From the NCBI GenBank assembly GCA_033762295.1, contig JANRLW010000052.1:1-21689 (forward strand): DNA of 21,689 bases, written 5' to 3'. The stretch's first letter is position 1. Each line of letters opens with the position of its first letter. The position numbers were made by a program. This document shows, piece by piece, positions 1 to 3,000 of the stretch. Source of the DNA: Capsulimonadales bacterium. GTDB lineage: Bacteria > Armatimonadota > Armatimonadia > Armatimonadales > Armatimonadaceae.

Positions 1-3000
1 GGAGAAACTGGAGACGTTTGGCCGGGTGGTGTTCGGCACGACCAACGTCGATTATTCGGCGGCGCTGGCGGATGAGATTCGCCGGGTACGTTCGTATCGC
101 CCGGCCTATCTGAGCGTCGAATCGGGCGGGGTGCAGATCGCGACGGGGGCGGGGGAGCGTTACGAGAAGAAGATCGATCTGCCTCCGACCTGGGTCCGGG
201 GGTTTTTGCAGGTACAGAGCGCCGCCGCCTTCTCCGGGGTTGAACTGACCCTTTCCGCCGCGACCGTCGCGGAGATGCTGTCCGTGCTTCGTCGTCGGCG
301 CGAGCGGATGAGTCCGCGGTCGATCAAGTTTTCCCTGAAATCGGGCGAACGGCCCCGAATCGTGCTGGAGCCCTGGAACATCGAAATCATCGAATGGAAC
401 CATGTCTACGAAGGGGGGTTCCAGGGAGAGATCCGTATCTGGGGGCGGCGACGTCTTCTGGCATTGACCGAACTGATGCCGTTCGCGACATCGGTACGCT
501 GTCGCCTGCTCGGAACCGGGATGCCGTCCTACTGGTCCGTGGATATGGACGGACACCGTTTTGACCTGGGCCTTTCCGGATGGACGAAAAACGACTGGTC
601 CCGTTCCGCCCGTTTCGATCTACTGGCGGCTACCGGCAGCATATCGGACCTGGAAGCGGATCAGGTTGCGGGGCTTCTGGAGCGGCGGATGAAACTGACG
701 CCCGAGGCGCTCGCCGACGAGACGGGATTGACCCGGGACGCCGCCACGGCGGCATTGCAGCGGTTGACGCGCGAAGGTCGAGCGATGTACGATCTCGCCG
801 CCCAGGTGTATCGCTGGCGGCAGTTACTTCCCTTCCCGGTGCCCGCCGACGAGGCCGACCAGCGGCTTCGCCTTGCCCAGCGTATCATCGCGACCGGGGG
901 CGTCCGGTTTCTGAAACCGGGCGAGGAGGACGACGAGACGGACGGCTTTTCCTCGTCCGGACGGACGGAGGAAACCCTGACCCGGTTTCGAGCCGTGGTG
1001 CGTGGCGGGGAATCCAAACGAGAGCGCAAGTTCGCGGTGACCATCGATCTGGACGCCGACGGCCGTGCGCAGTTCGTCGTCTGCAGTTGCTCGTTTTTCC
1101 GGGCCAACAAACTTCGGAAAGGTCCCTGCGCCCATATACTGGCGGCATCGTCTCTGGCGTCTCAGCAGGCGACAGGCTCCGGGTCTGCCGCCACGGACGC
1201 TCCGAAGAAGGGCGCGGTCGACCTGAACCGTTTCAAGGACAAAACGTTCGTCTTTACGGGCACGCTCACTTTGTTCACCCGTGAGCAGGCGGAATCGCTC
1301 GTCGTCGGAAACGGAGGCAAGGCGGCCGGAAGCGTCACACGAAACACGGATTTCGTGGTGGCGGGGGATAAGGCGGGCAGTAAACTGCAAAAAGCGCAGC
1401 AACTGGGAATTCCGGTGCTCACGGAGCAGGAATTTCAGAAGATGCTGGAAGGGTAAGGGGAGGATCGCGCTATGAATTCGGCGGAACGGGACCGTTTGAA
1501 GCAGATCGGAAAACCGGCATTTATTCGCGAGGAGATGACGCGACTGGGGTTCTGGCCTCCATCGCCGGACGTCGCCGAAAAAGCCAGGGATGCCGAAGCG
1601 CAACTACGGATACTTTATCGGGAACTGACGCGTCTGCAAACCGACCTGACGATGGTCGAGAAGGAGATCGCCACCGTCGGCGATATCCCCCGTCTTCTGG
1701 CGGAGATTCGCCGGGCGCGCATCGAGCGGGTCCGGGCGCAGCGGGCGCGACGGAAAGAAGAAAATGCCGCAGCCGTGGAGGCACGGCGGGCGCGGGACCG
1801 GGAGTGGCGCCGGACGCTTCCTTACCTCGGGCGCGAGGTTTCGAGCGGTCTTCGGTTCGGCGAGGAGTCGCCATCTCATCAACCGGAAAAGGTTGCCGAT
1901 TCCGGCCTGCCGTCCCTGGCGTCGGCGGCGGATATTGCCCGCGCGATCGGTATTCCGGAGAACGAGCTGGCGTTCCTGGCATTTCATCGGTCGGCGGTGG
2001 GAACGGATCACTACTCCCGTTTCGCCATTCCCAAAAAAAAGGGCGGGGTGCGGGTTATCTCCTCTCCGAAGCGTCGTCTGCGAGTCGCCCAGGGATGGCT
2101 TCTGGTTTCGATCCTGGAGAAATTGCCGGTTCACGACGCGGCGATGGCTTTCCGTCCCGGTCGGTCGGTGGTCGATAATGCCGTCCCTCACCGGGGAAAG
2201 GCGGTCGTCGTCAAGACGGATTTGAAGGATTTCTTCCCTTCCATCACCTGGCGGCGGGTCAAGCGATTGTTTCAGTCGTTAGGGTACGGGGAGGGCGTTT
2301 CAACGATTCTTTCCCTGATCGCGACGGAAACGCCAAGGATCGCCGTTCTTCTGGACGGGAAGCGACGTTTTGCGGCGGTCGGTGAAAGAGCGTTACCACA
2401 GGGCGCCTGTACGTCGCCGGCCATTACCAACCTTCTCTGTCGGCGGATGGATGCCCGGCTTGCAGGAGCGGCGAACGCGTTCGGATTTACCTACACTCGT
2501 TACGCGGATGACCTGACGTTCTCGCATGAGGACCCGGAGGCGAAGGTCGGAGGGCTTCTTTCCCTCGTCCGAGCCATCATCGCCGACGAAAAATTCGTGA
2601 TCAAGGAAGAAAAAACACAGATTCTCCGTCCCCAGGATCGGCAGGTCGTGACCGGACTGGTGGTCAACGGGGACGCACGGCCGCGGGTAAGCCGGGATGA
2701 TCTGCGGAGGTTTCGGGCGTTCCTGCACCAGTGCGAAACGCGCGGTCACGAGGCGATGAGCGAACGGATCGGCAAGGACGCCTACGCCTACGCCGCCGGT
2801 TATCTGTCCTATTTGCATATGACACGCCCCGAGGTCGCGGCCCGTATCGCCTATGCGCACCCATGGCTCAATCGCTGGCAAAAGGGAACGGACGGTTGAC
2901 GTCCGTCTTTTGACCCACCACCACTCGACCGATGCCGGCGAGATCCTTCCGTATGGCGGTCGGTCGAAATCCGGCATCGGAGAACAGGGCGGCAACTTCG

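What a model noticed while it worked through the whole genome (the two positions that open the first line are those of the whole stretch)
2..2899. Type XIII retron whose SWIM partner carries a LigA-like BRCT domain, common in Armatimonadales
A retron-type reverse transcriptase (g01786, 43% identical to the Mx162 RT) follows, 15 nt downstream, a SWIM zinc-finger protein (g01785, cut by the contig end) that ends in a BRCT domain 62-67% identical to the BRCT of NAD-dependent DNA ligases. I read it as a type XIII retron whose effector has captured the ligase BRCT module to sense or reach nicked or replicating DNA. The BRCT-bearing form is not in the published retron classification and marks this bacterial order.
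Evidence so far: swissprot.tsv: g01786 42.8% to Mx162 RT over 383 aa, 43.4% to Mx65 RT; g01785 aa 410-484 66.7% to Geotalea LigA aa 595-669; pfam.tsv: SWIM 346-382, BRCT 411-480. 62% identity to the BRCT of the genome's own LigA g01285. neighbours.tsv: BRCT next to RVT_1 in 27 of 70 other Armatimonadales genomes and in 138 of the 49,171 genomes that bear both; no fixed flank (0 of 70 with PrmC_N next to RVT_1). A protein fragment matching PADLOC HEAT-ARM_XIII (E 2e-18) ends contig C78.
(Added by a program. Inside this text positions count along the whole contig: contig position 1 is position 1 of the stretch shown here. "Call 12" and the like, gene names such as g00115 and contig names such as C1 are that model's own, and its searches are not shown. 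The text may have been shortened before it was handed on; [...] marks where a part breaks off. The agent that wrote the report below was given it as the finding of a first reader that could run no searches.)

Follow-up and report, generated by a model that had tools for sequence, protein, structure and literature searches.

The report
Split type XIII retron with BRCT
This is a known kind of bacterial retron (type XIII) in a lineage-specific form whose zinc-finger partner protein carries a DNA-ligase-type BRCT domain, and in this genome its template RNA gene and scaffold gene lie at a different place from the reverse transcriptase.

Summary
Window 2-1456 encodes the last 484 residues of a PADLOC SWIM_XIII protein ending in a LigA-type BRCT domain. 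Window 1472-2899 encodes an RT_XIII reverse transcriptase, 15 nt downstream. The missing 178 N-terminal residues lie on contig C74, which overlaps the window start by 6 nt in frame.

The BRCT tail is not an accident. All 31 uncut SWIM_XIII genes in the 71 genomes of the order have it, and so do Abditibacteria- and Chthonomonadales-labelled genomes. The tails form one clade against 30 LigA BRCTs, which fits a single old capture.

A covarying RNA of about 260 nt lies upstream of the HEAT/ARM gene in relatives, and it is homologous to the RNA that sits directly before the RT in myxobacterial type XIII loci. In this genome its only copy, with the only HEAT/ARM gene, lies mid-contig on C128, unlinked from SWIM-BRCT and RT. 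Its msd hairpin lacks about 70 nt.

What the BRCT does is untested. All LigA-conserved residues are kept, so binding to DNA nicks or 5'-phosphate ends is the likeliest role. This is a new variant of a known kind, of moderate interest.

The parts
2..1456 (+). 3' part (484 codons) of the SWIM_XIII-BRCT gene. The first 178 codons lie on G000:C74:3-539(-), giving about 662 aa in all.
   Evidence: SWIM_XIII matches at E 2.5e-119. The C74 piece matches profile positions 1-133. The two contigs overlap by 6 nt in frame. In relatives the two parts are contiguous, in proteins of 659-671 aa.
1082..1135 (+). SWIM zinc finger CxCx12CxH ([18 protein letters not shown], residues 361-378)
   Evidence: C361, C363, C376 and H378 are invariant in alignment A1.
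1157..1231 (+). Linker of about 25 residues, variable in sequence and rich in Ala, Gly and Ser, between SWIM and BRCT
   Evidence: Columns 573-600 of alignment A1 are unconserved and carry gaps.
1232..1441 (+). LigA/RFC1-class BRCT domain (residues 411-480)
   Evidence: Pfam BRCT matches at E 4.2e-15. The LigA models match this stretch only. PDB matches are LigA BRCT (9vse 3e-17, 2owo, 1l7b) and RFC1 BRCT (2k6g 1e-7). In 22 columns the same residue is at least 90% conserved in both the LigA BRCTs and the tails.
1457..1471 (+). 15-nt spacer with Shine-Dalgarno-like GGGGAGG (1457-1463) before the RT start codon
1472..2899 (+). Retron reverse transcriptase of clade 10 / RT_XIII, 475 aa. It has an N-terminal extension of about 140 residues, the RVT_1 domain at nt 2027-2656, NAVPH at 2177-2191, YADD at 2501-2512 and VTG at 2648-2656.

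Best explanation
This is a four-part type XIII retron of a variant confined to the Armatimonadota and Abditibacteria, and in this genome it is divided between two loci.

Shown here:
- Locus 1 (C74 joined to window 2-2899) encodes a DEDE/SWIM protein of about 662 aa with a tethered C-terminal LigA-type BRCT, followed by an intact retron RT that is probably translationally coupled to it.
- Locus 2 (C128) carries the genome's only type XIII msr-msd RNA gene (6645-6834). It is followed at once by the genome's only HEAT/ARM scaffold gene (to 10247).
- In most relatives these parts form one operon in the order RNA, HEAT/ARM, SWIM-BRCT, RT.

Inferred:
- The RT acts in trans on the C128 RNA. It would prime from the 2'-OH of the G at 6669, next to the a1/a2 duplex (6660-6668 with 6811-6819), and copy at most about 74 nt of msd into msDNA.
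- The msDNA-RT particle assembles with the HEAT/ARM and SWIM-BRCT proteins.
- The BRCT keeps every residue that LigA BRCTs of this phylum conserve, including the Thr-Gly, Arg and Ser-Lys positions. It therefore gives the DEDE/SWIM subunit affinity for nicks or 5'-phosphate DNA ends. Those ends could be on foreign or replicating DNA, or on the msDNA itself.

Whether the output is phage defence or a housekeeping DNA transaction is not known for any type XIII retron.
For: Family identity rests. The DEDE motif spans the contig join.

Contig join: a 6-nt in-frame overlap, adjoining profile positions 133 and 137, and contiguity of the two parts in relatives.

RNA:
- 19 copies from 16 loci give a consensus of 58 pairs, 44 of them with compensatory changes.
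- 88.9% of cells are paired, against 35-46% when the partners are slid. The covariation score is 0.601 against 0.10-0.17. None of 500 shuffles reaches the observed values.
- The covariance model hits the own genome once, at C128:6645-6834 (116.5 bits, E 3.6e-31).
- The same model hits the SWIM-RT spacer in 15 loci from Myxococcota, Cyanobacteriota and other phyla, and the region upstream of HEAT/ARM in 30 loci.
- The own copy folds with an a1/a2 closure at -76.3 kcal/mol, z -4.79.

HEAT/ARM: one gene in the genome, mid-contig. Its place in a tree does not conflict with that of the RT.

Linkage:
- In the order, RNA and RT lie on one contig in 23 of the 32 genomes that have both.
- A second clear split, with both halves mid-contig, is seen in G020.

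BRCT:
- 118 of the 120 best protein clusters carry it, as do 21 of 79 loci, all with Armatimonadota or Abditibacteria labels.
- The tails are monophyletic at 100/99.
- In 22 columns the same residue is at least 90% conserved in both the LigA BRCTs and the tails.
- PDB relatives are LigA and the DNA-binding RFC1 BRCT.
- A review (passages read, PMC10386641) reports that the LigA BRCT aids nick joining and the ligase-DNA complex.
- A sister lineage of SWIM_XIII proteins has a WGR domain inserted instead (L033 and P0124).
Against: - No msDNA, transcript or binding assay exists for this system.
- The own RNA copy lacks 68 model positions at the apex of the msd hairpin. That includes the CGCUGA motif that is invariant or nearly so in the 19 aligned copies.
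- The predicted 74-nt msDNA folds weakly (-15.8 kcal/mol, z -1.62), against -57.3 and z -9.93 for a relative.
- No sigma-70-like promoter was found before the own RNA or before the SWIM gene. A linked relative has one directly before its RNA.
- The genome is a 132-contig assembly with 2.2% estimated contamination, so the two loci might not come from one cell.
- Single BRCT domains can also bind proteins or phosphopeptides (review passages).
- Most SWIM_XIII proteins work without any BRCT: 58 of 79 loci, and about 6 BRCT-bearing proteins among the 150 best representatives.
Confidence: 0.7

Rival explanations
1. The BRCT is a protein-binding or oligomerisation module. It might dock the SWIM subunit to a phosphorylated or BRCT-binding host protein, or to another retron subunit. 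It would not be a DNA-end sensor.
For: BRCT domains bind phosphopeptides and other BRCTs (review passages). The Ser/Thr-Gly and Lys pocket residues that are conserved here are the same ones used for phosphoserine.
Against: The closest solved relatives are the single, DNA-binding BRCTs of LigA and RFC1, not tandem phosphopeptide readers. TopBP1 and Rad4 match only at E 0.01 or above. The tail keeps all LigA-conserved columns except one, G413.
Confidence: 0.2
2. In this particular genome the retron is decaying. After the operon broke apart, the RNA gene lost its promoter and most of its msd hairpin, and no msDNA is made. The SWIM-BRCT and RT genes either persist for another reason or are on the way out.
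For: The msd apex is deleted. The predicted msDNA folds weakly. No promoter-like site was found at either locus. No other short-hairpin copy was found. The own copy scores lowest among the full-length model hits in the order that lie next to a HEAT/ARM gene.
Against: All three reading frames are intact: 662, 475 and about 1100 aa. The catalytic motifs of the RT and the DEDE and zinc ligands are present. The msr part, the a1/a2 duplex and the base of the msd stem are kept. Recalled, not checked here: type XIII includes both long and short natural msDNAs (Mx162 and Mx65). A split with a full-length RNA exists in G020.
Confidence: 0.2
3. The split is an artefact of assembly or binning. In the real chromosome the RNA and HEAT/ARM genes lie directly upstream of SWIM-BRCT and RT.
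For: The genome is a metagenome-style assembly of 132 contigs with 2.2% contamination, and the SWIM gene itself is cut by a contig end.
Against: Both junctions that matter lie inside contigs. On C74 an FG-GAP/ASPIC gene ends 109 nt before the SWIM start. On C128 the HEAT/ARM stop is followed 17 nt later by a convergent phosphatase gene. The same pattern occurs mid-contig in G020.
Confidence: 0.08

Closest known systems
Retron type XIII (Mestre et al. 2020, PMC7736814: RT clade 10; Retron-Mxa1/Mx162, Mxa2/Mx65, Nex2/Ne144, Sau1/Sa163)
   Same: It shares the clade-10 RT with the N-terminal extension. It shares the cluster-114-type protein with the DEDE motif and the C-terminal CxCx12CxH SWIM finger, and the large HEAT/ARM partner. 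Its msr-msd RNA is homologous: the covariance model built here also hits the spacer directly before the RT in 15 loci from Myxococcota, Cyanobacteriota and other phyla.
   Different: The SWIM protein has an added BRCT on a linker of about 25 residues. The RNA gene lies at the head of the operon, about 5.5-6.5 kb before the RT, rather than next to it. In this genome the system is in two unlinked loci and the msd hairpin is about 70 nt shorter.
Type XIII loci without BRCT that also place the RNA first
   Same: They share the gene order RNA, HEAT/ARM, SWIM, RT. They fall on the same side of a 100%-supported split in the RT tree. Their SWIM-RT spacing is equally tight.
   Different: Their SWIM protein ends 5-18 residues after the end of the match to the window protein (residue 379), with no BRCT. 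L033 was not counted among these: its 173-residue tail carries an inserted WGR domain.
BRCT domain of NAD-dependent DNA ligase LigA (PDB 9vse, 2owo, 1l7b) and of RFC1 (2k6g/2k7f)
   Same: It has the single-BRCT fold class and is 63% identical to the own LigA BRCT. The Thr-Gly, Arg and Ser-Lys positions, and the other columns conserved in LigA, are all kept.
   Different: It is attached to a retron accessory protein. No adenylation, OB, zinc-finger or HhH ligase domains are present. G413, 97% conserved in LigA, is not kept in the tails.
PADLOC candidate defence protein PDC-S48
   Same: Its C-terminal stretch of about 105 positions aligns with residues 379-483 here, that is, the linker and the BRCT (E 6.8e-12).
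   Different: The rest of the protein does not match. Nothing further about it was examined.

Membership tests
Retron type XIII | Reverse transcriptase of retron clade 10 with retron motifs | tested here: met
   RT_XIII is the best PADLOC model, at E 1.5e-147 against 6.3e-90 for the next. NAVPH, YADD and VTG are present. In the RT tree it groups with other type XIII RTs.
Retron type XIII | Partner protein with DEDE motif, winged helix and C-terminal SWIM CxCx12CxH (cluster 114) | tested here: met
   SWIM_XIII matches at E 2.5e-119. The CxCx12CxH motif lies at residues 361-378. The D..D..E..D..E pattern is present in full-length relatives, and its residues are read on C74 and in the window. The winged helix has only a weak MarR_2 hit below the cut-off.
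Retron type XIII | HEAT/ARM repeat accessory protein encoded beside the SWIM gene | tested here: not met
   The gene exists and matches HEAT-ARM_XIII (6.6e-24) and WGR_XIII (5.6e-25). It lies on another contig, mid-contig, and not beside the SWIM gene. Mestre et al. state that many, but not all, members have it adjacent.
Retron type XIII | Type XIII msr-msd RNA gene contiguous with the RT | tested here: not met
   A homologous RNA is present once in the genome, at C128:6645-6834. It is unlinked from the RT. In relatives it lies about 5.5-6.5 kb upstream of the RT. Presence is met; contiguity is not.
Retron type XIII | Production of branched msDNA | not testable with these tools
   No sequencing run was listed for this stretch.
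NAD-dependent DNA ligase LigA | Full-length match to the equivalog models (adenylation, OB, Zn, HhH and BRCT domains) | tested here: not met
   Only model positions 584-664 of 664 match, at 84 bits against a cut-off of 369. The true LigA lies at C38:34646-36604.
BRCT domain (PF00533) | Score above Pfam's gathering cut-off | tested here: met
   56.2 bits against 21.3.
WGR domain in the HEAT/ARM partner (Mestre cluster 216_1) | Pfam WGR match in the N-terminus | tested here: not met
   No WGR hit at E up to 5 in the N-terminal 166-167 residues of four HEAT/ARM proteins, the own one included.

The most novel reading that the evidence does not exclude
Type XIII retrons are DNA-end or nick surveillance machines. 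In one lineage the DEDE/SWIM subunit gained a LigA/RFC1-class BRCT and in another a WGR domain, the same two modules that PARP-type break sensors use. In the lineage that places the RNA first, the template RNA has become a free-standing cassette. It can be multiplied in tandem with different msd stems, scattered as orphan copies, or separated from the RT altogether. One RT would then serve several RNAs in trans.
Probability: 0.25. Interest if true: 0.75.

Novelty: new variant of a known kind. Interest (0 to 1): 0.55.

Why it matters
Type XIII contains the first retrons ever found (Mx162 and Mx65), and its function is still unknown. A conserved, old fusion of a nick- or 5'-phosphate-binding module to its putative effector gives a concrete hypothesis that can be tested at the bench about what the complex recognises.

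The RNA result has a practical side. Retrons are defined, and searched for, as an RT with a contiguous RNA gene. Here a large clade keeps the RNA about 6 kb away, at the head of the operon, sometimes in tandem arrays. At least two genomes keep it at another locus. Pipelines that look only next to the RT will call such systems RNA-less.

Tried and rejected
- Rfam found no retron RNA in the window, in C74, or even in two myxobacterial loci. It has no usable type XIII model.
Neither end of G000:C78 encodes one.
- A pattern scan of metagenome contigs for other RNA copies with a short hairpin gave 34 loci, none of which the covariance model accepts. They are chance matches.
- Sequencing runs: none was listed, and no RNA holder was listed.
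- Viral contigs: 74 pattern matches, none confirmed as a relative.
Profile search of PDB sequences finds only the BRCT, and the ESM Atlas returns only other SWIM clusters.
- The Pfam WGR domain was not found in the HEAT/ARM N-termini.
- I considered diversifying selection on the msd stem arms and rejected it. The arms are 54% and 64% identical in two close pairs, against 63-74% at four-fold degenerate sites of the neighbouring genes. That is roughly neutral drift with pairing kept.
- Recent capture of the host's own LigA BRCT is rejected by the tree.
- Literature: searches for 'retron' plus 'BRCT', 'retron' plus 'type XIII', 'Mx162' plus 'retron' from 2021 and 'BRCT' plus 'anti-phage' plus 'defense system' gave nothing on this variant or on type XIII function.
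- The Mestre 2020 supplement could not be read, so whether Armatimonadota members or BRCT appear in its tables is unknown.
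Full report
**What is in the window.**
Two co-directional reading frames fill positions 2-2899. The first, 2-1456, is 484 aa and open at the contig end. It matches PADLOC SWIM_XIII at E 2.5e-119, residues 4-385 on profile positions 137-502 of 509. It has the SWIM finger CxCx12CxH at residues 361-378. After a variable linker of about 25 residues it ends in a BRCT domain (411-480; Pfam E 4.2e-15). 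The NCBIfam LigA models match that last stretch only, at 84 bits against a cut-off of 369. The second frame, 1472-2899, is 475 aa and matches RT_XIII at E 1.5e-147. It carries NAVPH, YADD and VTG. A 15-nt spacer with GGGGAGG separates the two. The RT stop overlaps the 3' end of a convergent prmC gene. The rest of the window holds housekeeping genes such as acpS, trxB and dapF.

**The missing N-terminus.**
The genome holds one more SWIM_XIII match, at G000:C74:6-539(-), on profile positions 1-133. The reverse complement of the C74 start ends in the same six bases with which the window begins, in the same frame. In all relatives the two parts are one gene. The protein is therefore about 662 aa, like its relatives at 659-671 aa. 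The DEDE motif of Mestre et al. spans the join. I did not build the joined sequence.

**How general the BRCT tail is.**
- Of the 120 best protein clusters, 118 carry Pfam BRCT.
- Of 79 loci from a genome-wide scan, 21 have it. One of the 80 loci was dropped for an internal stop in my coordinates. All 21 come from records labelled Armatimonadota, Capsulimonadaceae, Armatimonas, Chthonomonadales or Abditibacteria. None of the other 58 has it.
- In the order, 34 of 71 genomes have the protein. In 31 of these the match runs to the BRCT end. The other three stop short, two of them at a contig edge.
- In an even sample of the phylum, 10 of 61 genomes have it, in 3 of 30 families.
- Among the 150 best representatives of 1.84 billion proteins, about six join the SWIM core and the BRCT in one stretch.
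- A tree of 22 tails and 30 LigA BRCTs of the phylum puts the tails on one side of a branch with support 100/99.
- The tail is 63% identical to the own LigA. That is no closer than to other LigAs of the phylum, at 46-65%.

The fusion is therefore old and arose once. The donor cannot be named without outgroups. In the RT tree the 16 Armatimonadota rows form one clade, and four Abditibacteria rows surround a group of five without BRCT. This fits one gain and one loss.

**The RNA.**
In BRCT loci the three genes are packed with gaps of -4 to about 300 nt, which leaves no room for an RNA gene. An all-against-all comparison of the non-coding stretches found a conserved block upstream of the HEAT/ARM gene.

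- Nineteen copies from 16 loci align over about 260 nt. The consensus has 58 pairs, 44 of them with compensatory changes.
- 88.9% of cells pair, against 35-46% when the partners are slid. None of 500 shuffles reaches the observed values.
- The layout is that of a retron msr-msd. There is a closing a1/a2 duplex, then a conserved UAGC directly after a1 that holds the candidate priming G; that the branching G sits in this context is recalled, not tested. Two msr hairpins follow, then a long msd hairpin whose arms vary freely while staying paired, and invariant flanks.
- A covariance model built from these copies also hits the spacer just before the RT in 15 loci from Myxococcota, Cyanobacteriota and other phyla, which is the canonical place. 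It hits 2.9-6.6 kb upstream of SWIM in 30 loci, and finds nothing in 35.
- The RT tree separates the two arrangements with 100% support.

**This genome is split.**
The model hits the own genome once, at C128:6645-6834 (E 3.6e-31). The hit lies directly before the only HEAT-ARM_XIII/WGR_XIII gene, which runs to 10247. Both are mid-contig. An unrelated 640-aa frame ends 11 nt before a1, and a convergent phosphatase gene follows the HEAT/ARM stop. Upstream of SWIM on C74 lies an FG-GAP/ASPIC gene, not HEAT/ARM.

In the order, RNA and RT share a contig in 23 of the 32 genomes that have both. Of the nine others, including this genome:
- G058 is a plain contig break.
- G020 is a second clear split, with both halves mid-contig.
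- G019 probably is one too.
- In G028 the HEAT/ARM gene is cut by a contig end and an RNA copy lies on another contig, so it is not resolved.
- G003, G004, G023 and G056 were not examined; their contigs are short or cut in the tables.

The flanks are not shared between G000 and G020. The own HEAT/ARM protein sits in the same broad clade as the own RT, with no conflict.

**Oddities of the own RNA copy.**
Sixty-eight model positions at the apex of the msd hairpin are absent. The msr part, the a1/a2 duplex (6660-6668 with 6811-6819) and the stem base are kept, and the RNA folds at -76.3 kcal/mol, z -4.79. The copied DNA would be at most about 74 nt and folds weakly, against 144 nt and z -9.93 in L012. 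No promoter-like site was found, whereas L012 has one just before its RNA. This leaves room for the reading that the system is decaying here.

**What the BRCT may do.**
The nearest solved relatives are LigA BRCTs and the DNA-binding RFC1 BRCT. In 22 columns the same residue is at least 90% conserved in both the LigA BRCTs and the tails, including T419-G420, R427 and S460-K461. A review (passages read) describes the Ser/Thr-Gly and Lys phosphate pocket and the contribution of the LigA BRCT to nick joining. That the RFC1 BRCT binds 5'-phosphate DNA ends is recalled; only the titles of the PDB entries and of the 2010 paper were seen here. A sister lineage of SWIM_XIII proteins has a WGR domain inserted before the SWIM finger. 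I therefore favour recognition of DNA nicks or ends. This is inference.

**Comparison and novelty.**
Everything defining type XIII is present, but the RNA gene and the HEAT/ARM gene are not contiguous with the RT. The BRCT tail, the placing of the RNA at the head of the operon, and the split were not found in the papers I could search. Those were the main text of Mestre 2020 and passages of the 2026 SPIRE survey; figures and supplements were not seen. Earlier notes of this scan on other genomes describe type XIII operons 'with no RNA gene nearby' and scattered relic RNA copies. This fits what is seen here, but it is not independent evidence.

Noticed in passing
L007-L056 (30 loci) against L057-L086 (15 loci): Type XIII retrons come in two architectures that follow the RT tree. 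In one the RNA lies directly before the RT (loci from Myxococcota, Cyanobacteriota, Pseudomonadota, Planctomycetota and other phyla). In the other the RNA lies at the head of the operon, before HEAT/ARM (Armatimonadota, Abditibacteria, Bacteroidota, Verrucomicrobiota, Chloroflexota, Actinomycetota).
   Followed up: partly
L023 2948-3794; L038 2806-3682; L028 3112-4442; L032 2827-4002; L056 3593-4198; L034; L035: Tandem arrays of 2-4 RNA genes stand before one operon. The copies share the msr part (79-87% identical), but their msd stem arms differ (29-70% identical).
   Followed up: partly
G007 (six places), G019 (five hits in three contigs), G021, G022, L096 5798-6060(-): There are orphan copies of the RNA away from any RT. 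G007 has six hits but no RT_XIII at E 1e-60 in an 80%-complete genome.
   Followed up: no
L033 8001-9425; P0124: A SWIM_XIII protein from a Chloroflexia-labelled genome, and one library representative, carry a Pfam WGR domain inserted before the SWIM finger instead of a BRCT tail.
   Followed up: partly
L041, L043, L047, L050, L054: Abditibacteria-type genomes hold type XIII systems without BRCT, whose RNA lies 5.3-6.6 kb upstream of SWIM. One 4.72-Mb Abditibacterium contig also seems to encode a BRCT-bearing copy (P0089), so two paralogous systems may coexist.
   Followed up: no
L038 7400-9700; L056 7467-9448: In these two loci the SWIM-BRCT gene is interrupted by a frame change. They are possible pseudogenes or sequencing errors.
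   Followed up: no
L016 against L017; L008 against L009: The msd stem arms drift at about the neutral rate (54-64% identical, against 63-74% at four-fold sites). The msr part, the 3' flank and, in the first pair, the apex motif stay at 94-100%; in the second pair the apex is 77% identical.
   Followed up: yes
window 2868-2899: The RT stop codon region overlaps the 3' end of a convergent prmC gene by 32 nt.
   Followed up: no
window 10101-13118 (-): A 1005-aa reading frame has no Pfam match at E 1e-5.
   Followed up: no
P0140, P0146, P0194, P0152: These SWIM_XIII relatives of 725-846 aa have long extra regions that match no Pfam family.
   Followed up: no
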